Below are positions 25,761-51,132 of a DNA stretch of 64,000 bases, piece after piece. The stretch comes from Escherichia phage arall. The position numbers and the translations under genes are program-made. How positions within the stretch are numbered: the first letter of the stretch is position 1; each line of letters starts with the position of its first letter. The notes under the pieces are model-generated. The model was not told the origin of the DNA. It saw only the letters and a list, made by a program, of their open reading frames with translations, and made no database searches. The stretch lies in sequence record MN850584.1; one strand, given 5' to 3'.

Positions 25761-25785
25761 ATAAGAAAAGGGGCTTTCGCCCCTT
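25761..25785 (-). terminator. Hairpin AAAGGGGC-TTTC-GCCCCTT, one of three identical copies
   Basis: GC stem with flanking T/A runs; same 20-mer at 37056 and 50147. Confidence 0.6.
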
Positions 25786-37055: not shown

Positions 37056-37078
37056 AAAGGGGCTTTCGCCCCTTTGTT
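37056..37078. terminator. Hairpin AAAGGGGC-TTTC-GCCCCTTT (copy 2 of 3), bidirectional-type
   Basis: Between lysozyme stop and phoH start. Confidence 0.6.
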
Positions 37079-39395: not shown

Positions 39396-40265
39396 TTATT
39401 TTAATTTAAGTAAATACTTACCGTAGTCTGTTTTACTTAAAACCTCTCCAGAACTTTTTACAGAGTCTAAAGTAATCCATTCATTTTTAAAAGCAATCTC
39501 TTCCAGGCATGCAACCTTCATACCTTGTTGCTTTTCTATTGCATGAACAAATTGAGATGCTTCCATAAGACTTTCATGTGTTCCTGTATCCAGCCAAGTG
39601 AAACCTCTTCCTAGTTTACAGACACGTAAAGCCTTTTCTTTCCAGTACATCTCATTTATATCTGTAATCTCTAACTCCCCTCTAGCAGAAGGTTTAACGC
39701 TTTTAGCTTTCTGTACAACAGAATTATCGTAAAAGTACAAGCCTGTGATTGCATAGTTGCTTTTTGGTGCTTTTGGTTTTTCTTCAATACTCACCACTGT
39801 ACCTTCAGAATCAAACTCAACAACACCAAATCTTTCAGGATCATTTACGTGATACCCAAAAATATTAGCTCCACCATTCTTTTCAATATGTTCTTTAGCA
39901 GAATCTAAAATGCTACCAAAACTCTGACCAAAGAATAAATTATCACCTAGCACAAGTGCTACAGAATCTTCACCAATAAAGTTCTCACCAATAATAAACG
40001 CTTCTGCTAAACCTCTTGGGCTATCCTGTATTGCATACTGTAAGGAAATACCAAAAGAAGAACCATCACCTAGAAGATTTACAAAATTAATTTGATCTTC
40101 TGGTGTTGTAATTATTAGTATTTCCCTAATTCCAGAAAGCATTAGGACAGAGAGTGGATAATAAATCATAGGCTTATCATAAATTGGTAATAGTTGTTTA
40201 CTAACCCCTTTAGTAACTGGGTAAAGTCTTGTTCCACTACCACCTGCTAAGATAATACCTTTCAT
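39396..40265 (-). CDS. rmlA: Glucose-1-phosphate thymidylyltransferase
   Basis: [52 protein letters not shown] near-identical to recalled RmlA N-terminus. Confidence 0.92.
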
Positions 40266-40273
40266 ACTCCTCC

Positions 40274-41263
40274 TTAAACTTTATTTTCCCACCACTCTTT
40301 GTTATCTACATACCAATCAATGGTTGAATAAAGTTTTTCTTCAAATGTGCCTTTAGCTTTCCACCCTAATTCCTTTTCAATCTTATAAGGATTCACTTCG
40401 TATCTTAAATCATGTCCAGGTCTATCTGTAACCATTTCAATGAGGCTACAAGCATCTGTTTCAGATGGATACACCGCATCCATATAATCACAAATCATAT
40501 AGATTACATCAATATTAGTTCTAGGGTTTCTGCTCCCAATATTATATGTTTCTCCAGATTTGCCTTTAGTTACTACTAGGTGTAATGCTTCTGCGTGATC
40601 GTCAACGTATAACCAATCTCTTACTTGAAGACCATTGCCATAAACAGGGATTGGTTTATGCATCAAGATATTTGTTATCGTTTTAGGTATTAGTTTTTCT
40701 GGATGATGATATGCTCCAAAATTATTTGAACAATTTGTTATAACTGTCGGAATACCATAAGTACGATGCCATGCTCTTACCAAATGATCGCTTGCAGCTT
40801 TAGATGCAGCATATGGACTACTTGGTTTATAAGGATTCTGTTCTGTAAACGGATAATCCCCTTCTTCCATATCACCATACACTTCATCTGTTGAAATATG
40901 ATGGAACATTTTAAGATTTGATTTATCTCCCATTAAACGAACAGCTTCTAGAAGATTAAATGTTCCAACAATATTTGAATTTATAAAAACACTCGGTGAT
41001 GCTATTGAATTATCTACGTGACTCTCTGCTGCAAGATGCATTATATAATCTGGATTAACATCTGCCACAATCTTAGCAGTTAACTGCGCATTTGTCAAGT
41101 CAACACGACAAAACTTTACATTAGGTGTTTCTGATAAATTTCTAGGGTCTGAAGCGTAACCCCATTTATCTATAACGTAAATATCATTCTTAGTATTTTT
41201 AGCCAGGAAACGAACTACTGCACTTCCAATAAAGCCTAAACCACCTGTTACTAAGTATTTCAT
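40274..41263 (-). CDS. rmlB: dTDP-glucose 4,6-dehydratase
   Basis: [60 protein letters not shown]. Confidence 0.92.
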
Positions 41264-41470: not shown

Positions 41471-41797
41471 TTACCAAACGTGTTGAGAAATAATAGTTTC
41501 CGTTTCAATGTTATATTTTTCAAGAAGTTGTGCGTAGGCTTCTTTTGCATTCTTATTTAGTTGCTCAAGATCTACAGCTATACTTCCTTCGCCACCTTCT
41601 AAATAAATGCCATATATGCAATAAGATTCATCAGCATCATAGAAAGGAGAGATACGGCTTAAATCAAGACCTTCTTGTAAGAACCAATTAAAATCTCCAT
41701 CAAATTCTTCTTCAATTCTAGGATCTTCTCCTACAGCCTCTTCCCATTTATTAAAAGGTGCACCCTGTAACATACGCCATGCAATATCAACCCCCAC
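41471..41797 (-). CDS. Hypothetical protein (108 aa)
   Basis: ORF. Confidence 0.5.
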   Translation of the reverse strand: MGVDIAWRMLQGAPFNKWEEAVGEDPRIEEEFDGDFNWFLQEGLDLSRISPFYDADESYCIYGIYLEGGEGSIAVDLEQLNKNAKEAYAQLLEKYNIETETIISQHVW

Positions 41798-41933
41798 TAT
41801 CTTCCTCCTCTTCTTTTTCTTCTGTATGAACGAAACCTAAGCCGTTACAATTCCAACAAGGAATAAATTGTTCCATACTAACAATAAAATTCCCAGTGCC
41901 GCCGCAGATAGGACAAATACTTACATCGTCCAT
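41787..41933 (-). CDS. Possible small zinc-ribbon protein (48 aa; CPICGG...CWNCNG)
   Basis: Two CxxC pairs; fills gap, no strong RBS. Confidence 0.3.
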   Translation of the reverse strand: MDDVSICPICGGTGNFIVSMEQFIPCWNCNGLGFVHTEEKEEEEDSGG

Positions 41934-41935
41934 TA

Positions 41936-42118
41936 TTAAAGCTCCTCAATCTTTTCTAACATCTGTTTTAACTCATTCTCTGTTAACAGAATTTCTGTGA
42001 TACCATCATAAGTTTCTACCATCAGAGTAAAACATTTCTCTCCATCTGAACATACAAAAGCACCACCTTCATCTTCTGTTAAGTCAGAATTAATATCTAC
42101 ATCAACAAAATCAATCAT
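41936..42118 (-). CDS. Hypothetical acidic protein (60 aa)
   Basis: ATG with RBS AAGGAG. Confidence 0.45.
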   Translation of the reverse strand: MIDFVDVDINSDLTEDEGGAFVCSDGEKCFTLMVETYDGITEILLTENELKQMLEKIEEL

Positions 42119-42329
42119 CTTTTTCTCCTTTGATAATTTCAAACTTGGCTACACCATTAACTATAATATGACCGCAAGACAGAACTCCTAGCCAATGATC
42201 ACCATTCTTTTTTAAACGTTTACCGTAAACATCACAGAAACCATTCTGTAATTCGGAAGCCTCGTAAGAGGCTCCCTTTTCGAAAACGTCTTTGAAGTCA
42301 GAAATTAATCCAACACAAAGTAGTTTCAT
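42111..42329 (-). CDS. Hypothetical protein (72 aa)
   Basis: ORF. Confidence 0.5.
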   Translation of the reverse strand: MKLLCVGLISDFKDVFEKGASYEASELQNGFCDVYGKRLKKNGDHWLGVLSCGHIIVNGVAKFEIIKGEKDD

Positions 42330-43414
42330 TAAAAGTCTAACTCCTCGTCATCACTTACATCTTTATTTGCTGAATTCAGTTTGTAAGCTGTAATTTGGAT
42401 CTCTTGTGCTGCTGCTTGAATTTGATCTGGATTTAACCAAACATCCATCCAAGGCAGTGGACTTTTCTTCGGTGCACGGAATTTGTGTTTCATTTTCAGT
42501 CTGCGATAGATAGGCGCGGCATTGAAGTAAACCCAAAGTTTGAACAACTCTGCGTTACCACCAACGATAACCCTTCCTTCACTAAACAGATAGTCACACC
42601 AATCTTCCTCTTGTCCAACTACCGTATCAAGAATTTCTGTCAGAACGTCGATATTGTCTTCGTATACTTTTCTCCAAACAGGATCTTTCAGCAGTGCATC
42701 AATAATAGCATAATCCATTTTAACGTGCAATAGTTCATCCAACATAATTTTTTGAATGAGTTTAGCTGCACCTACAAACAATTGCTGCTCTGCTAAGGCA
42801 AATGTTGCAGCAAAAGAGGAGATGAACTGAATACCTTCCAGACCGATAAGTGCAATCATTCCTTTCAGGATCAGTAGACGAAGGTTATCATCCTTCTCAA
42901 TCAGACCTAGAGCATATTTATGTCCTGCCTCTGCCAGATCACTCATTATCTCTTCAACTATACCCATCCTCTGGAAGATTCTTTCATTCTCCATGATCTG
43001 ATCGATAACTTCATTCGGATTAGGGATACACTGACGAATAATTTCAGAATATGTCAAAGCGTGTAAAACTTCCATTTCTGATTGCTTCATCATCATTGCA
43101 CATGCTTCGTTGTTGCTTAAAAATGGTGCAAACAAAGTGATGATTGATTTAGCAAGTGAATCATTTTCCCATTGGAAAGATAGGTTTTTGATCATAACAT
43201 CATAGTTGCTTTTAGAACAAGCTACGAAATCTTTTCGTGTCTGATCTAAGTTTACTTCGTTTTCATCCCAATCTTGCTGTTTTTGTAGTTTGTACAGACG
43301 ATGCATTTCTGGGTATGTTACGTTAATAGAATCAAAAATACCTAACTGTTCTCCCAAAAATACAGGGTAGAAACCTTCTTTGTAAGTGTCGTTGTATAAA
43401 TTAATTGCTGCCAT
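42329..43414 (-). CDS. nrdB: Ribonucleotide reductase class Ia beta subunit
   Basis: Ferritin-like di-iron blocks and size as in NrdB. Confidence 0.88.
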   Translation of the reverse strand: MAAINLYNDTYKEGFYPVFLGEQLGIFDSINVTYPEMHRLYKLQKQQDWDENEVNLDQTRKDFVACSKSNYDVMIKNLSFQWENDSLAKSIITLFAPFLSNNEACAMMMKQSEMEVLHALTYSEIIRQCIPNPNEVIDQIMENERIFQRMGIVEEIMSDLAEAGHKYALGLIEKDDNLRLLILKGMIALIGLEGIQFISSFAATFALAEQQLFVGAAKLIQKIMLDELLHVKMDYAIIDALLKDPVWRKVYEDNIDVLTEILDTVVGQEEDWCDYLFSEGRVIVGGNAELFKLWVYFNAAPIYRRLKMKHKFRAPKKSPLPWMDVWLNPDQIQAAAQEIQITAYKLNSANKDVSDDEELDF

Positions 43415-43736
43415 TTAAATCCTCCACAATATCACACATTGCTTTTATTGTATCAATGTGTTCTCTCTCCATACCATTCTCTATGTAAGCCTTCTCTAAT
43501 GCGTTCCATACACTCTTTGTGAGTAGTACAGTAACTTCTCCCTCATATCTTGCCCTGGTTAAAGCATACCAGGTAGCTATGGGATCATTGGAAGCCCATA
43601 TTTCAACACTGGAAAATTGAAAACCTGCAATATAATGACAACACCAATCGAATGTAAAATCTTTACTCTCTACCAGTGTATAATTTCCCCAGCGTCTTTG
43701 TGGTGTTGCCCCAGGTAATACAACTAATGTAGGCAT
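43401..43736 (-). CDS. Hypothetical protein between nrdA and nrdB (111 aa)
   Basis: ORF. Confidence 0.5.
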   Translation of the reverse strand: MPTLVVLPGATPQRRWGNYTLVESKDFTFDWCCHYIAGFQFSSVEIWASNDPIATWYALTRARYEGEVTVLLTKSVWNALEKAYIENGMEREHIDTIKAMCDIVEDLNGSN

Positions 43737-43745
43737 ATTCCTCCT

Positions 43746-43769
43746 TAAGAAAGGGGGACAAAGCCCCCT
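43746..43769 (-). terminator. Hairpin AGGGGG-N6-CCCCCT + TTTCTT after nrdA
   Basis: GC stem, T-run on minus strand. Confidence 0.55.
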
Positions 43770-43776
43770 AGTTTCA

Positions 43777-46041
43777 TTACATTTTACAGGCGCTACACCC
43801 CTCGTCTTCAGAATCTTCTTGAGCGAGTGAGGATGCCGATTTTGTTCTGCTATTTAGATAGTACAAAGACTTACCACCAAGTTTTGCAAACTGAAGAATA
43901 TATTGCATTTCTGATTTAATGGATAAACGACCACCTTCCATCTTAGAATAGTCAATCCACTTATCACATGATGCACCTTGATCTAAGAATTTAGTCAACA
44001 GTCCATATGCTTCAGCCATATCTTTATCTGGTGTATCCCAAGCCGATTGGTAAATATCTTTTAGTTTATCGTAGTCTGGCACAATAAACAGAACATTACC
44101 CTTTTGGCTTTGTTTATAAACTATAGTATCACGTACAGGATACACAGAGTTAGTCGTATTACTTACAAGACTACTGGACTCATTCGGAGCAATAGCTGCT
44201 AATACACTATTTCGGATACCACCTTGTGCAATTATATCTTGTCGTAAACCTTCCCAATCCATTTTAAGTTTAAAATTGCCAATATCGTCTACAGCTTTAG
44301 CGTAGGTATCAATAGGCAACCATCCTTCAGGCCATTTGGTTTTATGCATCCATTCTGCATTACCTTTCTCTTTTGCCAAACGAAGAGAAGCTCTTGCTAA
44401 CCAATAATAATGTCTTTCTGCTAATTCGTGAATTAGTTTTTTGCCGTAAGGATCTGAATAAGTAACAAAATTACTTGCCAGATAATGTGCAAGGTTTGTA
44501 ATACCTACACCGATAGACCTACGTGCTTTAGCAGTGATTTCGTTATGTTTAAACGGATACTTCATTGTTTCAATAACATTATCAATAGTCAGAACGGTAT
44601 AATATGCAACATCTTCATATTCTTCTGGTGTAACACGACCAGCTACAATAGAAGACAGGAAGCATAATGCCAATTCTTGATCTTCTGTATTCTCACCTGT
44701 GAAAAGATCAGTCATATTGTGAAATGCTTTCGTAGGTAAGAAAATTTCTTGGCACAAGTTTGACTGGTAAATAACATCCTTAAACGGAGTATGCTTATTA
44801 GCATTATCCGCAAAGAACATATAAATACGTCCTGTCTCTGCTCTTTGTGTAATAATTTCTGCCAGAAGATCTCGTGCTTTTACAAACTTCTTCTTAATTC
44901 GTTTGCGACTAACTTTTTCATATACTTCTTCAAACTCTTCCTCGCTTTTATAAAGCGCCTCATAGAGTTCTGGTGCTTCGTCATAACTGACTAGCATCCA
45001 ATCTTTACCTTTTGCTGCACGGCGCAGGAAAGCATTGTTTACTACAATAGAGTAATCAAGTTTATCTACTCGTTTTTCACTAACAGTAGTTGGATTTTTC
45101 AAACGTACCAGATCTTCAAAATCAGGTTCTAGTATTGTAAACGTTACTGTTGCACTTCCACCACGACTTGCTTGTTTTGATGCTCCAACACTTGTCTCCA
45201 TCCATTTCAGATATGGTAAAAGACCACCGTGAACGATACGGTTGTTCTTAACACCTTGTCCTGTGGCACGGGTTTGAAGGTTAACACCAATACCTGCATT
45301 ATTCAATGTATATTCATGCGCAAGATAGTTAGCAATTGCTAAAGATTCTGCTGTATCGTCTGCTCTAAACAGACAACAAGAAGCACTACCTTTAATCTTA
45401 GTACGCAAAGTTGTTAAATAAGGCGATGGTAAATTAATCTTAAGATCACTTACGTAGGTATATAGACGTTTAATGTCTTCTACTCTGCGATCTTTTGGTT
45501 GAATTTCCATTACCTTCATTGCTACACCAATGAATAAAAACTGTGGTGATTCAAAAACAACATCATTGATCGCATCTTTCACAAGATACTTATCAACCAT
45601 CTGGCGCAGTACGGAATAACCATAAGTTAGGTTTTTATCGTGATTGACAATTTTACCAATCTCAATAATTTCTTCTTCTGTATAATCCATTTTTCCCCAA
45701 TAGCCTTTACTTACAGACATATTGTAGAAATCCAGGAGGGAGGGGATATTGTGATATCCCCCATGAGCCTGTTTATAAATCATACCAAGAAGTAACCGAC
45801 CTGCCATATCACTATATGCCTGATCTTTCTTATCAATACATGCTGCTATCATAGCTTTATGTAAATCACGAGTAGGCACACCGTCGTAACAACGTTTAAC
45901 AGCTTCGAGTTCAATTTCAGACCAATTTAATTTACCAGCAGCAAACTCTGACCATTTACGAAGTTTTTCTGGATTAAATTCTTCTTTCTTGCCGTTTGTT
46001 TTTGTTACATAACGGATAGATTTGCTTAGATACTGAGTCAC
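43777..46041 (-). CDS. nrdA: Ribonucleotide reductase class Ia alpha subunit
   Basis: N-terminal ATP-cone-like region; SNLCQEIFLPT, C-terminal EGCSACKM tail; co-linear with recalled E. coli NrdA. Confidence 0.93.
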   Translation of the reverse strand: MTQYLSKSIRYVTKTNGKKEEFNPEKLRKWSEFAAGKLNWSEIELEAVKRCYDGVPTRDLHKAMIAACIDKKDQAYSDMAGRLLLGMIYKQAHGGYHNIPSLLDFYNMSVSKGYWGKMDYTEEEIIEIGKIVNHDKNLTYGYSVLRQMVDKYLVKDAINDVVFESPQFLFIGVAMKVMEIQPKDRRVEDIKRLYTYVSDLKINLPSPYLTTLRTKIKGSASCCLFRADDTAESLAIANYLAHEYTLNNAGIGVNLQTRATGQGVKNNRIVHGGLLPYLKWMETSVGASKQASRGGSATVTFTILEPDFEDLVRLKNPTTVSEKRVDKLDYSIVVNNAFLRRAAKGKDWMLVSYDEAPELYEALYKSEEEFEEVYEKVSRKRIKKKFVKARDLLAEIITQRAETGRIYMFFADNANKHTPFKDVIYQSNLCQEIFLPTKAFHNMTDLFTGENTEDQELALCFLSSIVAGRVTPEEYEDVAYYTVLTIDNVIETMKYPFKHNEITAKARRSIGVGITNLAHYLASNFVTYSDPYGKKLIHELAERHYYWLARASLRLAKEKGNAEWMHKTKWPEGWLPIDTYAKAVDDIGNFKLKMDWEGLRQDIIAQGGIRNSVLAAIAPNESSSLVSNTTNSVYPVRDTIVYKQSQKGNVLFIVPDYDKLKDIYQSAWDTPDKDMAEAYGLLTKFLDQGASCDKWIDYSKMEGGRLSIKSEMQYILQFAKLGGKSLYYLNSRTKSASSLAQEDSEDEGCSACKM

Positions 46042-46052
46042 TTCCTCTCCTA

Positions 46053-46313
46053 TTAATTATGCATATTTAGAACATCTACATCATAACCGCCACGCATCTC
46101 ATTATATAAGCCATTTGCGTATAGAAAACCTTCAAAATGATCTATACCTTCAAAACCTTTTGCCTTTGCTTTGCGGTCTGCTTCTTGTCTTTTTGGGGAT
46201 AATCTTTTAGATGTATCAAGGATAACTGTTACATTGCAACCTAATGTTTCATCAAAATAGACTTCAATTTCACAGCCTTCATATTTATTACTTTCTGTCA
46301 TTTGGCCTCTCAA
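46053..46313 (-). CDS. Hypothetical protein (86 aa)
   Basis: ORF. Confidence 0.5.
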   Translation of the reverse strand: MRGQMTESNKYEGCEIEVYFDETLGCNVTVILDTSKRLSPKRQEADRKAKAKGFEGIDHFEGFLYANGLYNEMRGGYDVDVLNMHN

Positions 46314-46724
46314 TTAGAATTCAGAATCATCATCTCGTGATGGATCATGTTCATTTCCGAAGTCTTCCATTTTGATATGAGAGCTACCCCAACCTGTAAA
46401 ATCTTCTTCTCCAAAGTGCAAAATATCTACACCTTGATAGATTCGCTTATATTTATAGTCTTGTCGAACTGGGAAAGTATACAATGTAGTATTTGCAAAC
46501 ACCACACGTCGATTGTTGTTACTACGAATATTAACACCACGTTCTACTGTATAATGTCCATCGGTAGACATACCAAGCATTACTAATGCTGCTCGCAATG
46601 TAGTGTTATGATACTCGTGAGGAATTTTTCCTCCGTGTTTTTTAGCCATTTCTTTCCAGATCGGTGTAGCCTTAATGGTAGACATACTTACGGTCGCCCA
46701 AACGGTTGTATTAATTAGTGACAT
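46314..46724 (-). CDS. Hypothetical protein (136 aa)
   Basis: ORF. Confidence 0.5.
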   Translation of the reverse strand: MSLINTTVWATVSMSTIKATPIWKEMAKKHGGKIPHEYHNTTLRAALVMLGMSTDGHYTVERGVNIRSNNNRRVVFANTTLYTFPVRQDYKYKRIYQGVDILHFGEEDFTGWGSSHIKMEDFGNEHDPSRDDDSEF

Positions 46725-46822
46725 AAATTCTCCTTCTCTCTTTTTAAGGAGAGCTACGCTCTCCTAACGTTAGCCTATACTACACGAATCTCAATTAAAA
46801 GTCAACTATAATTTTAAGTTGA

Positions 46823-47794
46823 TCACCATTTTGTATGGTTAGTCAAAAGTTGACGATGTTGAATCCAAGCGCAGAAGTTTCCACTCCACAAACGATGTTT
46901 ACGATCCATATGTGTAATACCTTCTTCCCAAGAAGTAGGGAACGGAGGAATATTAATACCACCTTTCTGTTGTTTTAATCCTGACAAATCCATTTCTTTC
47001 ATTGGCGTTGCCTGGTGTTCAAACGGAGATGCATGTACCTTTTGTCCAGACAGCAAACGAGAATAGATATCCAATGCTTTATCTTTAGTATCATTCAACT
47101 TACGATAACTTACCTGAGCGCAACAAGAAGCTGAAATAGCTTTTGCTTCCTCTTCTGTCAACATTTTCTCGTTGGAGAAGGTTTCACCCAAGAAATAACG
47201 GATCATACCAGTTTCTGGATCTCGATCACGATTAACGTAAGGTGTATGCCATTCCCCTGGGAAAAGAAGATATGGTTCAGAAGATTCATACAGTTTTTTA
47301 ATTTCTTTAGCAAGAGCCTCAATAGTAGGATCTGCATCAGCATCTACACGCAACCACAAGAAGTTTTCTAGCTCTGTAGTGGTTACTACAGTCTTCATAC
47401 GCTGGAATGGTTCTAGTAGGCGGTTTGCAACCTGTTTATGATAACCAGCAAGGGCAAACTCTTCTGCAAAACGTGCAGCACTTAGTGCAGCCAAGTCCCA
47501 CCATTCTTTTGCAGTGTAACCTGCATCAATCAGGGCATCGTGATCTGTGCCTTTATCTTGCATACCTGGTTGGTTAGCACCAAAACGATAAGGACGTGCT
47601 GGAGATTGCCGTACCATTTCAATTAGAGTTTTAACAGGGATAGCTCGACTTGATGCAGCATTACGAGAAAACAAACGATGCGTCATCAATTCAGAGTGAA
47701 TGATTCGAGGATATTCAAGTTCAAAGGTAACAATATCCTTACCTTCAGATGTTTGAGAGTGTGCAATAATTTTTGCTGAAATAGAATCTGTCAT
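46823..47794 (-). CDS. thyX: Flavin-dependent thymidylate synthase
   Basis: ThyX signature region MTHRLFSRNAASSRAIP (RHRxxxxxS). Confidence 0.82.
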   Translation of the reverse strand: MTDSISAKIIAHSQTSEGKDIVTFELEYPRIIHSELMTHRLFSRNAASSRAIPVKTLIEMVRQSPARPYRFGANQPGMQDKGTDHDALIDAGYTAKEWWDLAALSAARFAEEFALAGYHKQVANRLLEPFQRMKTVVTTTELENFLWLRVDADADPTIEALAKEIKKLYESSEPYLLFPGEWHTPYVNRDRDPETGMIRYFLGETFSNEKMLTEEEAKAISASCCAQVSYRKLNDTKDKALDIYSRLLSGQKVHASPFEHQATPMKEMDLSGLKQQKGGINIPPFPTSWEEGITHMDRKHRLWSGNFCAWIQHRQLLTNHTKW

Positions 47795-47803
47795 TATTTC
47801 TCC

Positions 47804-48394
47804 TTAAGGTAGTAAAATACTTTCAATTTCTTCCCACTGATTATCTAAACCAGTGATAATTACATTAGGAAGTTTCTTTAACTCTTCCAAGTACGGATCT
47901 TCATAAATAGTGTTGAAATATATTTTCAACGTTTCATCTGGGAATAGGACAAGATTTTCAGCCCTATCATCAATAGTTACGTCGCAAGGCAATAAGTATT
48001 TTTCTTTTGTTGCGAAAAAACCATTACCAGATGTTCTACTAAAATCCACTTTATCTAAAGATCGTGTTACGTGTCTATATTTAGAACTAAGGTGTCCACC
48101 CTTAGTGTGGCTTGCTATAGATATATTAGCTCCATTTGCAATTATACGATGAACAACATCTGTACTATTAGGTACTACTCCCATAGTATCATATAGATGT
48201 TGGTTATCCCAAAAAGAGTAAGGATCTACACCAAATTGCTTTTTAAAATCAGGAAAATATTTCGTAATATCATAATGCACAGTCTTTTGTGTCTTATCAA
48301 ACTTGATATTAGATCTACTTACCGCATTTAACCAACTCAACCATTCTATATCGGCAGGAGCTATTACTAAATCCCAATCACATACTAGACGCAT
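47804..48394 (-). CDS. Putative HAD-family 5'(3')-deoxyribonucleotidase
   Basis: Start at MRLVCDWDLV (HAD motif I DxD near N-terminus, RBS AGGAG); C-terminal TIDDRAEN; motif recall only. Confidence 0.45.
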   Translation of the reverse strand: MRLVCDWDLVIAPADIEWLSWLNAVSRSNIKFDKTQKTVHYDITKYFPDFKKQFGVDPYSFWDNQHLYDTMGVVPNSTDVVHRIIANGANISIASHTKGGHLSSKYRHVTRSLDKVDFSRTSGNGFFATKEKYLLPCDVTIDDRAENLVLFPDETLKIYFNTIYEDPYLEELKKLPNVIITGLDNQWEEIESILLP

Positions 48395-48941
48395 TATTTC
48401 TCCTGTTATAACATTTTCTACACATTGTTTCGTAAATGTCTTCTCCTCCAATAACAATCTGTTCTTTAGAGTCGATAAGTCTAGCATTGAAAATAGCTTT
48501 TCTTCCACATTTACAAATGCTTTTCAATTCTGTAATTGAATCTGCTATGGCTAATAACCGTTCAGAACCTTCAAACAATTCTGTAGCAAAATCTGTTTTA
48601 AGTCCATAGCAGAATACAGGAATATCGTAATTATCTACCACATCTCCAAGAATGTCAACCATATCTTTAGTTAGGAATTGTGATTCGTCCACAAATACTG
48701 CATCTACTGGATTTTCTTTAAGCTGTGTATAAATTTCCAGCATATCTTCTTTTGTTTTAACTGGTTTTGCTTCCTCTTTAATACCTATCCTAGAAGCAAT
48801 AGCACAACCAGATCTGGTATCTAAAGCTGAAGTTAAAAGAAGAACTTTCATATTTCTTTCTTTATAGTTCCAAGCTGTTTGTAGCAGATGTGTGCTTTTA
48901 CCACTGTTCATTGGACTATATCGGAAATAAAGTTTAGCCAT
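48378..48941 (-). CDS. tdk: Thymidine kinase
   Basis: P-loop SPMNSGKST, C-terminal Zn-ribbon CKCGRKA; typical Tdk size. Confidence 0.85.
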   Translation of the reverse strand: MAKLYFRYSPMNSGKSTHLLQTAWNYKERNMKVLLLTSALDTRSGCAIASRIGIKEEAKPVKTKEDMLEIYTQLKENPVDAVFVDESQFLTKDMVDILGDVVDNYDIPVFCYGLKTDFATELFEGSERLLAIADSITELKSICKCGRKAIFNARLIDSKEQIVIGGEDIYETMCRKCYNRRNNASSM

Positions 48942-48983
48942 ATTTTCTCCTCTAACGCTCCCATTTGTGGGAGCGATAATACT

Positions 48984-49562
48984 TTATTTTTTCTCTTCGT
49001 CAAGAAGAATTTTTACTATTTGTTTTCTTCGCTTACTTACTGTACTTTCTGGTGAAATTCCGCGCTTCGTTAGCCAATTTTTATCCTTTTTAGACTGGCA
49101 TAAAGCTATCGCTTCTTTCTCCGCTTTTGCTTCCCTGAATGTCATATCGTGCTTGTCAGCATAAGCCAGGATAGCGTTACACTGCTTACAAACTACACGC
49201 AGGTCGTCTTCTGTTACGTACAATAGGCGTGAAACAAAACTTGGGATATCTTCATAACAGGTTAATGTACCTGCTGCATTAATATGGTCTACTTGAAAGT
49301 CTTTCATACCTCCTGTATGTCCACACAATTCACATTTACAATTCCAAACCTGTTTCGGTTTGCCTGTTTTCTTATCTAAAACTATATTTCCATCTTTATC
49401 CAACCTATCCGCTTTAAATCGTACAGATTGGATCTTTTTTATCTTATTCGGGTGTCTCACCCATGCTTTCCTTAAGCAACCCCTTAAATATGTATAAAAG
49501 GCTGCTTGAGTTTTCCAAGGTGTTCCATCTCCCCAAATAACTTTAGGTTCTTTATTTTCCAA
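48984..49562 (-). CDS. HNH endonuclease
   Basis: CELCGH...QVDHINAAG...CKQCN HNH motif. Confidence 0.7.
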   Translation of the reverse strand: MENKEPKVIWGDGTPWKTQAAFYTYLRGCLRKAWVRHPNKIKKIQSVRFKADRLDKDGNIVLDKKTGKPKQVWNCKCELCGHTGGMKDFQVDHINAAGTLTCYEDIPSFVSRLLYVTEDDLRVVCKQCNAILAYADKHDMTFREAKAEKEAIALCQSKKDKNWLTKRGISPESTVSKRRKQIVKILLDEEKK

Positions 49563-49746
49563 TAGTGCTCACCTTTTTAGCTACATAATCTCCAGGTGGA
49601 ATGTTATATTTAAAGAAAAGCATACGGTCTAAACCAGCTTTACACATGTTTTCTGGGATTGTGATTGTATATAGGAGTTTATCTCCACGTTTATTGTATA
49701 TTTTATATACTTCACCCTCTCCGTATTGTTTACCGTGAGAAGCCAT
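49552..49746 (-). CDS. Hypothetical protein (64 aa)
   Basis: ORF. Confidence 0.45.
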   Translation of the reverse strand: MASHGKQYGEGEVYKIYNKRGDKLLYTITIPENMCKAGLDRMLFFKYNIPPGDYVAKKVSTIGK

Positions 49747-50131
49747 CTACGCTCTCCTTCAATGTTTCAATAGCATCTGCTGCTTCAATATACTTACCTT
49801 TGTACATTGCTTTTAAAGCCTTACGAACAAGATCATCGTCTGTGTATAAATCAATTAGCTGATTAGCTAACTCAATTTTTACAGGATTTTTTAAGTTAGG
49901 GTAGGCTTCATACAACATATTGTAATACTTATCACTTAATTCTTTTTCAATATGAATAACGTGAATCGCTTTGTTTAGGTTGATCACACGATCACCTTTG
50001 TTTCGACAAGCATACTTAGCTAACTTAGTGAAACAAGGAGTTGCACCAATTAGATATGCAAGTTCCAAAGGTTGCATACGCATACGTTTGTAGTGATCAC
50101 CATCAATTTGAATATCCAGTGCTGTAGTCAT
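49730..50131 (-). CDS. Hypothetical protein (133 aa)
   Basis: ORF. Confidence 0.5.
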   Translation of the reverse strand: MTTALDIQIDGDHYKRMRMQPLELAYLIGATPCFTKLAKYACRNKGDRVINLNKAIHVIHIEKELSDKYYNMLYEAYPNLKNPVKIELANQLIDLYTDDDLVRKALKAMYKGKYIEAADAIETLKESVDGFSR

Positions 50132-50146
50132 AAATCCTCCAAAAAT

Positions 50147-50170
50147 AAAGGGGCTTTCGCCCCTTTTTAT
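50147..50170. terminator. Hairpin AAAGGGGC-TTTC-GCCCCTTTTT (copy 3 of 3), bidirectional-type
   Basis: GC stem flanked by T/A runs on both strands. Confidence 0.6.
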
Positions 50171-51132
50171 TAAATTCCAATAACAGTGTTTACACGCTTC
50201 TCTTTGCTACGCAAATTAACACGTCCACGAGACAGGCTATTACATGATGTGCATCTTAGCACTTGGAATGTACTAACCGCTGTTGTGTAAACCTTACCAG
50301 GAACAACTTCAAGGTGCTCTTTACCGCAACGAGGACAACGAAGTTTTTCATCGTCATAGAATGCAGATACGTTAGGATGTTGTGGAATCCATGCACGAAG
50401 TTTGATGTAAAGATCTCTAAGAGAAACAACATCACCATCATTGTATGTTTGCATACGGAAGAAGGCATGTCTATCTCCTTCACAACATGCTTTCCACAAA
50501 GGAAAACCTTCATTATCAAGTTTAAAGTTTTCTGTATCAAAATACAAACACATTTCTTTAAGCGCATTAGAAGGTAGTGCAAACTGCTTCTTAGCTGCCT
50601 TGAGTGTATCAATTACAACATAATGTGATGGTGGCTCCATACCGTGAAAAGCAAAACGTTGGTTAATATAAGCCTTATCAAACTTAATACCATTGTGCGC
50701 GATCACAATATCTGCATCGTCAAGTAAGTGCCAGAGATCTTGACATAATTCCCAATCATCTGTATGATCTATGTCAAACAAAGGGTAATTGCTAAGGTTC
50801 TTACCTTCTACTTCCCCTGTTTCTAAATCAGCAGATGAATAGGAAAGCAAGTAACCTCGACGAATAACTTGTTCAGGTGCAATAAAGGCTTTGAAACGTG
50901 AGAAGCTATACACAATCTCCGGTGCTGTCTCTACGTCAATAATTTTAATTACTGGCCCACCTTTATCTTGCGGAGCACCGCGATGTGGTGAATTTACACG
51001 AGCTAAGTAATCATTTACTGTGCTCTTCTTAGTAGAACTTCCCAACACCTCTTGTGCAATCTTACGCGAAGAATAACCTTGTGCTTTCATAGATACAATC
51101 AAGGCTTTCTGTTCGTCTGTTAATTTACTCAA
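50170..51132 (-). CDS. DEDD-type 3'-5' exonuclease with N-terminal HTH and C-terminal Zn-ribbon
   Basis: IIDVETAP (Exo I), IAHNGIKFD (Exo II), CPRCG...CTSCN. Confidence 0.6.
   Translation of the reverse strand: MSKLTDEQKALIVSMKAQGYSSRKIAQEVLGSSTKKSTVNDYLARVNSPHRGAPQDKGGPVIKIIDVETAPEIVYSFSRFKAFIAPEQVIRRGYLLSYSSADLETGEVEGKNLSNYPLFDIDHTDDWELCQDLWHLLDDADIVIAHNGIKFDKAYINQRFAFHGMEPPSHYVVIDTLKAAKKQFALPSNALKEMCLYFDTENFKLDNEGFPLWKACCEGDRHAFFRMQTYNDGDVVSLRDLYIKLRAWIPQHPNVSAFYDDEKLRCPRCGKEHLEVVPGKVYTTAVSTFQVLRCTSCNSLSRGRVNLRSKEKRVNTVIGI

What the first reader, a model, noticed from the sequence alone, without database searches (positions are those of the whole stretch)
42329..48941. Nucleotide-precursor module with ThyX and an ORF between nrdA and nrdB
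The module comprises NrdA, NrdB, flavin-dependent ThyX (not ThyA), Tdk and a putative HAD deoxynucleotidase. A 111-aa ORF of unknown function sits between nrdA and nrdB, a position often taken by mobile or regulatory genes.
Basis: partly seen in the sequence, partly recalled or inferred. Interest (0 to 1): 0.35.

Follow-up and report, generated by a model that had tools for sequence, protein, structure and literature searches.

The report
Optional gene between phage RNR genes
This is the ordinary, already-annotated DNA-precursor gene cluster of a phi92-like E. coli phage; the small gene wedged between its two ribonucleotide-reductase genes is real but dispensable, of unknown function, and sits in a slot that sister phages fill with a homing endonuclease or leave empty.

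Summary
The window is a Justusliebigvirus (phi92-like) coliphage. Region 42329-48941 is 98-99% identical to more than 50 deposited genomes that carry the same annotation. On the minus strand it encodes Tdk, an HAD/NT5C-like phosphatase, a divergent ThyX-like protein, two unknown ORFs, class Ia NrdA, the 111-aa ORF and NrdB.

ORF111 is a genuine gene. It has a strong Shine-Dalgarno site and dN/dS of 0.12-0.19. Its AlphaFold model is confident (pLDDT 91), an alpha/beta fold with no PDB match. It belongs to PHROG 17458 (unknown function), a tiny family found only between nrdA and nrdB of Stephanstirmvirinae.

It is not a nuclease and carries no signature of a known RNR helper protein. It is also dispensable. 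The nrdA-nrdB gap has four states in sister phages:
- ORF111 alone (this window)
- an HNH endonuclease alone (phi92 itself)
- both
- neither

The HNH gene travels with about 35 nt of nrdA, which is a homing signature. ORF111 uses the ancestral nrdB ribosome-binding site and encodes a replacement site in its own last codons.

The biochemical function remains unknown. Overall this is a known module with a modestly interesting polymorphic hot spot. Separately, the ThyX-like protein appears to have a permuted segment order.

The parts
48378..48941 (-). tdk, thymidine kinase (187 aa)
   Evidence: Pfam TK 185 bits. NCBIfam NF003300 238.9 bits, above the cut-off of 195. Missing at this place in phAPEC8.
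47804..48394 (-). HAD-superfamily phosphatase, NT5C / 5'(3')-deoxyribonucleotidase-like (196 aa); overlaps tdk by 17 nt
   Evidence: D6-x-D8-L-V, S95, K132 and D142-D143 are invariant in 8 homologues. Pfam NT5C scores 23.2 bits, just under the cut-off of 24.8. A profile hits human mitochondrial deoxyribonucleotidase 1mh9/4l6a at E 0.006 over almost the full length. The relatives' copies carry an unmarked PF06941 hit.
46823..47794 (-). ThyX-like protein (323 aa), divergent, with an apparently permuted segment order
   Evidence: Pfam Thy1 37 bits (cut-off 24.8), covering only residues 22-170. TIGR02170 35.6 bits, below its cut-off of 87.9. No PDB sequence hit. By hhalign against a canonical ThyX profile, phage residues 19-195 match T. 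maritima ThyX 59-215 (probability 80%, E 1.3e-5). The segment at about 220-262 matches T. maritima 21-61; 0 of 200 column shuffles reach that score.
46314..46724 (-). conserved ORF of unknown function (136 aa)
   Evidence: PHROG 15711, unknown function. Syntenic in all relatives. dN/dS 0.07-0.17.
46053..46301 (-). conserved ORF of unknown function (82 aa) directly upstream of nrdA
   Evidence: PHROG 15807. 89% identical between genera, as conserved as NrdA. Faint or weak DUF8047 hits in relatives.
43777..46038 (-). nrdA, class Ia ribonucleotide reductase alpha subunit (753 aa from the ATG)
   Evidence: Pfam lgC 332 bits and lgN 43 bits; ATP-cone 21.7 bits, below its cut-off. NCBIfam TIGR02506 482 bits, above the cut-off of 341. 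The C-terminal CSAC cysteine pair can be read directly.
43753..43768 (-). G+C-rich hairpin followed by a T run, 8 nt after the nrdA stop codon
   Evidence: Terminator-like hit. The same GGGGC-tetraloop-GCCCC hairpin follows nrdA in Stephanstirmvirinae and Vequintavirinae. The pattern occurs 4 times in the window against 0.1 expected. Folding energy of this copy alone is not exceptional (z -0.5).
43740..43746 (-). Shine-Dalgarno AAGGAGG of ORF111; this is the position of the ancestral nrdB ribosome-binding site
   Evidence: Sequence read directly. In genomes with an empty gap the same hairpin and GAGGAG are followed directly by the nrdB ATG.
43401..43736 (-). ORF111: accessory protein of unknown function (PHROG 17458); exact protein is QHR67629.1 of phage arall
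43420..43425 (-). Shine-Dalgarno GGAGGA of nrdB, embedded in ORF111 codons Val-Glu-Asp; the ORF111 stop codon lies 11-13 nt inside nrdB (14-nt overlap)
   Evidence: Sequence read directly. GTGGAGGAT is conserved at the ORF 3' end in phAPEC8, Tr1, L012 and ESCO5. This explains the conserved C-terminal VEDL.
42329..43414 (-). nrdB, class Ia ribonucleotide reductase beta subunit (361 aa)
   Evidence: Pfam 116.8 bits. In the alignment to class Ia R2 structures, the Asp/Glu/His iron ligands and the radical Tyr are all present.

Best explanation
The block is the deoxynucleotide-supply operon of a phi92-like (Justusliebigvirus) coliphage. It is read on the minus strand as Tdk, an HAD-type nucleotidase, a ThyX-like protein, two unknown ORFs, NrdA, ORF111 and NrdB.

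ORF111 is a real, translated and dispensable accessory gene. It occupies one of two insertion slots in the nrdA-nrdB gap:
- Slot 1 lies between the nrdA stop codon and a conserved hairpin. In sister phages it takes a free-standing HNH homing endonuclease.
- Slot 2 lies between the hairpin with its ribosome-binding site and the nrdB ATG. It takes ORF111.

ORF111 is translated from what was the nrdB ribosome-binding site. Its last codons (V-E-D-L-N-G-S-N) encode a new GGAGGA site and overlap the nrdB start by 14 nt. nrdB translation is therefore kept, and probably coupled to ORF111 (inferred).

The product is a small soluble alpha/beta protein with no detectable relative of known function. Most copies, including this one, are acidic (pI about 4.7), though the most divergent members are not.

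Shown here:
- the gene is real
- its position
- it can be absent
- the four allelic states of the gap
- the co-conversion tract that accompanies the HNH gene

Inferred: the protein is not needed for RNR catalysis. It most likely acts as a fast-evolving accessory factor, for host interaction or competition, that rides on the RNR transcript. It is gained and lost by recombination in a homing hot spot.
For: Identity of the phage and prior annotation.

The gene is real:
- AAGGAGG ribosome-binding site
- dN/dS 0.12-0.19, against 0.02-0.05 for NrdA and NrdB
- AlphaFold2 pLDDT 91.4, pTM 0.84

Narrow family: only 9 representatives among 1.84 billion proteins and 20 clusters at 90% identity. Every member whose context was inspected sits between nrdA and nrdB.

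Fast evolution: ORF111 is 51/45/36/28% identical where NrdA is 87/85/84/79%.

Dispensable:
- phi92, ESCO9 and UAB_1 have flanks 96-98% identical to the window, yet carry an HNH gene instead of ORF111.
- Tuntematon and many other Phapecoctavirus have only a 44-nt gap.
- ESCO5 has both genes.
- Roughly 79 of 132 subfamily genomes carry ORF111, and 24 carry a gene at least 60% identical to the phi92 HNH.

The outgroup Vequintavirinae and ICP1 lack ORF111.

Homing signature: the HNH-bearing Phapecoctavirus AV125 and ESCO5 carry the Justusliebigvirus-type last ~35 nt of nrdA. Upstream of that they are 93-100% identical to their own genus.

Mosaicism at the gap.

No RNR-helper or nuclease signature: no Pfam, NCBIfam or PADLOC hit; no conserved Cys or His; no PDB fold match.

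The only remote relative is 4MG_191 (PHROG 25840, unknown function), which lies far from the RNR genes.
Against: - ORF111 is never found anywhere except between nrdA and nrdB, even at 27% identity, and it overlaps the nrdB start. A functional tie to NrdB therefore cannot be excluded.
- No expression data were available.
- The proposed role (host interaction or competition) is an inference from evolutionary behaviour, not from any homology.
- The state counts are approximate, because only samples of the hit lists were inspected.
- The 4MG_191 relationship is weak (hhalign probability 55%).
Confidence: 0.6

Rival explanations
1. ORF111 is a lineage-specific helper or regulator of the phage class Ia RNR. 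It could, for example, assist NrdB cofactor assembly or tune the alpha:beta ratio. On this reading it is made in step with NrdB through translational coupling.
For: Exclusive placement between nrdA and nrdB in every member with context. A 14-nt overlap with nrdB, with the nrdB Shine-Dalgarno site inside its coding sequence. Purifying selection.
Against: - Near-isogenic phages lack it: phi92, with flanks 98% identical, and many Phapecoctavirus have none anywhere in the genome.
- Vequintavirinae with homologous RNR genes lack it.
- It evolves several times faster than NrdA and NrdB.
- It has no flavodoxin, ferredoxin or redoxin signature and no invariant Cys or His.
- NrdB is a canonical class Ia protein with all its ligands.
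Confidence: 0.15
2. ORF111 belongs to the mobile-element biology of the gap. It could be a passenger spread by co-conversion with the neighbouring HNH endonuclease. Alternatively, its insertion could alter the endonuclease's target region and so protect the genome from cleavage.
For: - The gap is a demonstrated hot spot with four allelic states.
- A co-conversion tract accompanies the HNH gene.
- ORF111 and nrdB phylogenetic affinities differ from those of nrdA in L014 and L015.
- The cassette is bracketed by Shine-Dalgarno-like repeats.
Against: - ORF111 has no nuclease, integrase or DNA-binding signature.
- Its composition matches its neighbours.
- HNH and ORF111 coexist in ESCO5, so ORF111 does not exclude the HNH gene.
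- Purifying selection on the protein is not explained by a purely positional role.
- The HNH cleavage site is unknown.
Confidence: 0.15
3. ORF111 has no function of its own. It is either a non-functional ORF or merely a translated spacer that delivers ribosomes to nrdB.
For: It is dispensable. Its C-terminal conservation is explained by the embedded nrdB ribosome-binding site.
Against: - dN/dS of 0.12-0.19 across the whole ORF.
- Invariant core residues F27, W31, G38, W47 and R61, far from the overlap.
- A confident compact fold predicted from only 20 sequences.
- Empty-gap genomes show that nrdB needs no such spacer.
Confidence: 0.05

Closest known systems
T4 nrdA-mobE-nrdB, and the Aeromonas phage Aeh1 nrdA split by mobE (PMC2790892, PMC3045599)
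   Same: Phage class Ia RNR genes are a hot spot for free-standing HNH homing endonucleases. In phi92, AV125 and ESCO5 an HNH gene (PHROG 953) sits between nrdA and nrdB, and flanking nrdA sequence is co-converted with it.
   Different: In the window itself the occupant is ORF111, which has no nuclease features. It lies in a second slot downstream of the hairpin. The HNH gene here is not shown to be related to mobE, and its cleavage site is unknown.
RNR operon helper proteins: YfaE (2Fe-2S ferredoxin of nrdAB-yfaE), NrdI flavodoxin and NrdH redoxin of nrdHIEF, phage glutaredoxin/thioredoxin (established knowledge)
   Same: A protein of roughly 100 aa encoded inside an RNR operon and co-expressed with the beta subunit.
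   Different: No sequence, motif or fold similarity. No conserved Cys or His. Dispensable in sister phages. The phage's glutaredoxin is a separate gene further downstream in relatives.
PHROG 17458 and the hypothetical proteins arall_185, bas60_0220, phAPEC8 G377_gp160 and ESCO5 gp092
   Same: Same family, full length, E 1e-62. The window protein is identical to QHR67629.1.
   Different: None. The family has no assigned function.
Canonical flavin-dependent thymidylate synthase ThyX (T. maritima 1O26/1KQ4)
   Same: The core (T. maritima 59-215) aligns. The equivalents of H79, R80, N85, S88, R90 and R174 are conserved, and an H-x-S-P-F-E-H motif is present.
   Different: The first Arg of RHR is Thr and Y91 is Ala. 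The segment equivalent to T. maritima 21-61 lies after the core instead of before it. There is about 60 aa of extra C-terminal sequence. The score is below the TIGR02170 equivalog cut-off, and no PDB sequence hit is found.
Mammalian 5'(3')-deoxyribonucleotidases cdN/mdN (Pfam NT5C; PDB 1mh9, 4l6a)
   Same: HAD motifs I-IV are invariant, and a weak profile match covers almost the full length.
   Different: The Pfam score is just below the gathering threshold. Substrate is unknown.

Membership tests
Class Ia RNR beta subunit (NrdB) | Ferritin-like fold with the Asp/Glu/His/Glu/Glu/His diiron ligands and the radical Tyr | tested here: met
   Pfam 116.8 bits. In the alignment to class Ia R2 structures, D, E-x-x-H, Y, E and E-x-x-H are all present.
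Class Ia RNR alpha subunit (NrdA) | All-alpha domain plus 10-stranded barrel domain, N-terminal ATP-cone, C-terminal Cys pair | tested here: met
   lgC 332 bits and lgN 43 bits; TIGR02506 482 bits, above the cut-off of 341. The ATP-cone scores only 21.7 bits, below its cut-off of 25.8. The C-terminal CSAC was read directly.
ThyX (flavin-dependent thymidylate synthase) | Match to the Thy1/ThyX domain model above the curated threshold | tested here: inconclusive
   Pfam PF02511 scores 37 bits, above its cut-off of 24.8, but covers only part of the model. TIGR02170 scores 35.6 bits, below its cut-off of 87.9.
ThyX (flavin-dependent thymidylate synthase) | ThyX motif RHR-x7-S-x-R-Y | tested here: not met
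   It reads T38-H-R-x7-S48-x-R50-A51 and is invariant in 17 homologues. H, R, S and R are kept; the first R and the Y are replaced.
ThyX (flavin-dependent thymidylate synthase) | Canonical order of segments (helical N-terminal segment with H-x-x-P-F-E-H before the core) | tested here: not met
   That segment aligns to phage residues of about 220-262, after the core.
ThyX (flavin-dependent thymidylate synthase) | FAD- and methylene-tetrahydrofolate-dependent dUMP methylation | not testable with these tools
   Needs an enzyme assay or thyA complementation.
Thymidine kinase (Tdk) | TK domain with P-loop and C-terminal zinc-ribbon cysteines | tested here: met
   Pfam 185 bits; NCBIfam equivalog 238.9 bits, above the cut-off of 195. 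GxxxxGKS and the CKCG...CRKC cysteines were read directly.
HAD superfamily, NT5C-type deoxyribonucleotidase | HAD motifs I (DxDxV/T), II (S/T), III (K) and IV (DD) | tested here: met
   D6, D8, S95, K132, D142 and D143 are invariant in 8 homologues.
HAD superfamily, NT5C-type deoxyribonucleotidase | Family model above the curated threshold | tested here: inconclusive
   23.2 bits against a cut-off of 24.8. Profile versus PDB mdN gives E 0.006.
Homing endonuclease (HNH, GIY-YIG, LAGLIDADG) - considered for ORF111 | Nuclease catalytic motif or domain | tested here: not met
   No Pfam, PHROG or NCBIfam nuclease hit. No invariant His, Asn or Cys. The alpha/beta fold has no nuclease match.
RNR accessory proteins (NrdI, YfaE, NrdH/Grx/Trx) - considered for ORF111 | FMN-binding flavodoxin fold, Cys4 2Fe-2S site, or CxxC redox motif | tested here: not met
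   No family hit. C32 and C33 of the window protein are replaced in wider relatives. No structural match.
PHROG 17458 (unknown function) | Full-length match to the family profile | tested here: met
   E 1.2e-62, residues 1-111 against profile positions 1-112 of 112.

The most novel reading that the evidence does not exclude
ORF111 could be the founding member of a new-fold class of phage proteins that act directly on the class Ia RNR beta subunit. It might, for instance, control radical-cofactor loading or alpha-beta pairing. It would be made in fixed proportion to NrdB by translational coupling and used only by some lineages.

A second reading is also not excluded. The ThyX-like enzyme, with its permuted segment order and altered RHR motif, may catalyse something other than plain dTMP synthesis.
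Probability: 0.12. Interest if true: 0.6.

Novelty: new member of a known kind. Interest (0 to 1): 0.3.

Why it matters
The module itself adds nothing new. It is deposited and annotated in dozens of phi92-like genomes and is described in the rV5 and BME3 papers.

Three points are worth keeping:
- The nrdA-nrdB gap of Stephanstirmvirinae is a natural four-state polymorphism: ORF111 present or absent, combined with the HNH gene present or absent. A visible co-conversion tract accompanies the HNH gene. This makes it a ready system for studying homing and marker exclusion in therapeutic coliphages.
- ORF111 is a confidently folded, fast-evolving orphan protein. Natural knock-outs exist in near-isogenic phages, so its function can be tested directly.
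- The very large phage 'thymidylate synthase' family represented here seems to be a ThyX with a rearranged segment order and no solved structure. If confirmed, that would be of interest to enzymologists.

Tried and rejected
1. **Redox protein.** The WCC/CxxC-like motif at the start of helix 1 suggested one. I rejected this because C32 and C33 are replaced by A/V/H/I/Q/L in wider relatives.

2. **Known folds.**
   - The first AlphaFold model, built from 8 sequences, was too poor to use (pLDDT 60).
   - The second model was good but gave no PDB match (best E 0.18, TM 0.38).
   - In BFVD it matched only itself and 4MG_191.

3. **Proteins of similar size next to nrdB in outgroups.** I tested the 113-115-aa ORFs that follow nrdB in Seunavirus and Klebsiella phage P8734, and the 4MG 'NrdA.1-like' protein. 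None is related.

4. **Sequence and profile searches for ORF111.** PDB sequence and profile searches, NCBIfam, Pfam and PADLOC all returned nothing.

5. **Rfam scan of 41500-50500.** Nothing found.

6. **Internal promoters.** Promoter-like hits are no more frequent than in shuffled sequence, so none is claimed.

7. **Hairpin energy.** The window copy is not exceptional against shuffles. The argument for the hairpin therefore rests on its conservation and enrichment.

8. **Recent horizontal acquisition judged by composition.** GC and GC3 match the neighbouring genes.

9. **A first ungapped comparison of nrdA 3' ends.** A 3-nt indel made it misleading. I redid it with an alignment.

10. **Third protein search, used on the ThyX-like family.** It returned only close phage homologues and no bridge to canonical ThyX. 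I built the bridge instead from a T. maritima sequence, verified against the PDB, plus six phage ThyX genes.

Full report
**What the window is.**
Region 42329-48941 is 98.3-98.8% identical over its full length to about 55 deposited Justusliebigvirus (phi92-like, Stephanstirmvirinae) coliphage genomes. It is 60-80% identical to Phapecoctavirus genomes. The ORF111 protein is identical to QHR67629.1, 'hypothetical protein arall_185' of Escherichia phage arall. In ESCO8 the block is annotated as thymidine kinase, hypothetical, putative thymidylate synthase, two hypotheticals, RNR alpha, hypothetical and RNR beta. Papers on rV5 and BME3 already list the aerobic RNR, thymidylate synthase and thymidine kinase of this phage group (PMC3606486, PMC12210895). 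As a module, the finding is therefore already known.

**Checking the named genes.**
All genes lie on the minus strand.
- **Tdk** is unambiguous (Pfam 185 bits; NCBIfam equivalog above cut-off).
- **NrdA and NrdB** are class Ia. NrdB keeps every diiron ligand and the radical tyrosine when aligned to solved class Ia R2 proteins. NrdA ends in the usual Cys pair.
- **The HAD-like protein** should start at the ATG at 48394 (196 aa). All four HAD motifs are invariant in eight homologues. The NT5C assignment itself is weak:
  - Pfam 23.2 bits against a cut-off of 24.8
  - profile hit to human mdN at E 0.006
- **Two further conserved ORFs of unknown function** (136 aa and 82 aa) sit between the ThyX-like gene and nrdA. 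They are syntenic even in Vequintavirinae.

**The ThyX-like protein.**
It passes the Pfam Thy1 threshold, but only over residues 22-170. It fails the TIGR02170 equivalog cut-off and hits no PDB chain, even as a profile.

To place it, I retyped the T. maritima ThyX sequence and confirmed it is identical to 1KQ4/1O26. I then built a canonical profile from it and six phage ThyX genes.

- The profile-profile comparison aligns phage residues 19-195 with T. maritima 59-215 (probability 80%, E 1.3e-5).
- The equivalents of H79, R80, N85, S88, R90 and R174 are kept.
- R78 is replaced by Thr and Y91 by Ala.
- The canonical N-terminal helical segment (T. maritima 21-61, ending in H-x-T-P-F-E-H) has its best match after the core, at phage residues of about 220-262 (SCCAQVSYR...HASPFEH).
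- That match is the second-best hhalign alignment (E 0.005). None of 200 column-shuffled controls reaches its score (mean 12.8, maximum 21.4, observed 25.6).

The family is very large, with at least 7988 clusters at 90% identity. 'ThyX, not ThyA' is right at superfamily level. The enzyme is nevertheless a non-canonical form with an apparently permuted segment order, and its activity is untested. I found no paper describing this arrangement.

**ORF111 is a real gene.**
- AAGGAGG lies 3 nt before its ATG.
- It matches PHROG 17458 (unknown function) end to end.
- Homologues of 107-117 aa occur at 27-98% identity.
- Nei-Gojobori dN/dS is 0.12-0.19 at dS of about 1. That is similar to the neighbouring 136-aa ORF, and higher than NrdA and NrdB at 0.02-0.05.
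- With 20 sequences AlphaFold2 gives pLDDT 91.4 and pTM 0.84 for a compact beta-alpha fold.

An exhaustive HMMER scan of 1.84 billion representative proteins finds only nine clusters. The family is therefore confined to this phage lineage.

**What ORF111 is not.**
- There is no Pfam, NCBIfam or PADLOC hit and no PDB sequence or fold match.
- The cysteines that look like a redox motif in the window copy are not conserved.
- The invariant residues are F27, W31, G38, W47 and R61, with W77 in at least 90% of sequences. These are mostly aromatic and therefore probably core residues. They do not form a catalytic or metal-binding set.
- The conserved C-terminus V-E-D-L-N-G-S-N is explained at the DNA level. 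GTG GAG GAT encodes the nrdB GGAGGA ribosome-binding site, and the last codons overlap the nrdB ATG.

The only remote relative is 4MG_191, a 139-aa hypothetical protein (PHROG 25840) of Seunavirus 4MG. Three weak but independent methods pick it out:
- Foldseek, E 8.6e-5, TM 0.58
- hhalign, probability 55%
- hmmsearch over all 4MG ORFs

It lies among small early genes, far from the RNR genes.

In Vequintavirus, Seunavirus, Mydovirus and Klebsiella phage P8734, nrdA is followed by a GGGGC-UUCG-GCCCC hairpin, a T run, a ribosome-binding site and then the nrdB ATG, a gap of 37-40 nt. ICP1 also has nrdA and nrdB adjacent, but with only an 11-nt gap and no such hairpin. The same hairpin follows nrdA in Stephanstirmvirinae. 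It is one of four such elements in the window, against 0.1 expected.

Within Stephanstirmvirinae the gap has four states:
- **A:** hairpin, then ORF111. Seen in this window, most Justusliebigvirus, phAPEC8 and ESCO13.
- **B:** an HNH endonuclease of 218 aa (PHROG 953) between the nrdA stop and the hairpin, with no ORF111. Seen in phi92 itself, ESCO9, UAB_1, AV125, nieznany and EF1-1.
- **C:** HNH, hairpin, then ORF111. Seen in ESCO5 and REC.
- **D:** empty, 44 nt. Seen in tuntematon, ukendt, anhysbys, Schickermooser and others.

There are thus two independent slots. Roughly 79 of about 132 subfamily genomes carry ORF111, and 24 carry a gene at least 60% identical to the phi92 HNH. These counts come from hit summaries and are approximate. 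The phi92 flanks are 96-100% identical to the window. ORF111 is therefore dispensable in a near-isogenic background, and genomes that lack it have no copy elsewhere (one place per record).

**Evidence that the gap is an active homing site.**
After alignment, the HNH-bearing Phapecoctavirus AV125 and ESCO5 are 93-100% identical to their HNH-free congeners over nrdA, except for the last ~35 nt. There they carry the Justusliebigvirus-type sequence GAAGACGA(A/G)GGGTGTAG(T/C)GCCTGTAAAATGTAG, including a 3-nt indel. Conversely, the hairpin and nrdB leader of phi92 are of the empty Phapecoctavirus type, not the window type. This is the pattern expected if the HNH gene moves between genera with short flanking tracts and, in phi92, erased ORF111 by co-conversion.

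Consistent with recombination at the gap, the metagenomic phages L014 and L015 are closer to phAPEC8 in NrdA (90% versus 87%). In ORF111 (74-78% versus 46-50%) and in NrdB (86-88% versus 82-84%) they are closer to the window.

**How it most likely works.**
Shown:
- ORF111 sits in slot 2.
- It uses the ribosome-binding site that serves nrdB in empty-gap genomes.
- It provides a new ribosome-binding site for nrdB in its last codons.

Inferred:
- ORF111 and nrdB are expressed by read-through of the hairpin, because there is no room for a promoter in the 25 nt between them.
- nrdB translation is coupled to ORF111.
- The protein acts in trans as a non-essential, fast-evolving accessory factor rather than as part of the RNR.

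I put about 0.6 on this reading. Three rivals remain:
- an RNR helper, 0.15
- a homing-related passenger or target-disrupting insert, 0.15
- no function of its own, 0.05

The main argument for the RNR-helper rival is that the family is never found anywhere else. The main arguments against it are natural absence in sister phages, absence in the outgroup, rapid divergence, and the lack of any cofactor signature.

**Comparison with known systems.**
The closest precedent is T4, where the HNH endonuclease gene mobE lies between nrdA and nrdB, and Aeh1, where mobE splits nrdA (PMC2790892, PMC3045599). The phi92-type state B is a new example of that kind. ORF111 itself fails the membership tests for homing endonucleases and for the RNR helpers NrdI, YfaE and NrdH. 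It can only be filed under PHROG 17458.

**Verdict.**
This is a correct but ordinary observation. Three additions come out of the second look: a four-state insertion hot spot, a confidently folded orphan protein with natural knock-outs, and a possibly permuted ThyX.

Noticed in passing
window 46823-47794 (-): The ThyX-like protein seems to have its canonical N-terminal helical segment (T. maritima ThyX 21-61, H-x-[ST]-P-F-E-H) moved behind the catalytic core. Its RHR motif reads THR. The family is huge (at least 7988 clusters at 90% identity) and has no solved structure detectable by sequence.
   Followed up: partly
window 39396-41263 (-); relatives L002 9246-12524, L014 8754-12044: A dTDP-sugar pathway follows the nrdB block: RmlA-like and RmlB-like genes in the window, with RmlC-like and RmlD-like genes next to them in relatives. 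The purpose in the phage was not examined.
   Followed up: no
window 25770-25783, 37059-37072, 43754-43767, 50150-50163: Four GGGGC-NNNN-GCCCC hairpins, against 0.1 expected by chance. On the minus strand they read GGGGCGAAAGCCCC followed by a T run. They probably punctuate the long minus-strand operons.
   Followed up: partly
window 48378-48941 versus L002 (phAPEC8) 1715-2935: tdk is present here and in metagenomic contig L012, but is absent at this place in phAPEC8, where the HNH endonuclease gene is followed directly by the HAD-like gene. This is another presence/absence polymorphism in the module.
   Followed up: no
window 48984-49562 (-): An HNH endonuclease gene (PHROG 1985, 192 aa) lies immediately upstream of tdk. 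It is unrelated to the phi92 gene_074 HNH (BLASTP E 0.2) and is conserved in phAPEC8.
   Followed up: partly
window 46053-46301 (-): The 82-aa ORF upstream of nrdA is 89% identical between genera, as conserved as NrdA itself. It has no known function; relatives show only faint or weak DUF8047 hits.
   Followed up: no
phage records MG065639, MG065645, MG065656, MG065689: Records labelled 'Campylobacter phage' are 98.4% identical to this coliphage block over 6.6 kb. The host label looks doubtful.
   Followed up: no
L006 (Vibrio phage ICP1) 1744-4974: The ICP1 nrdA is annotated as intein-containing. This is another mobile element targeting phage RNR genes.
   Followed up: no
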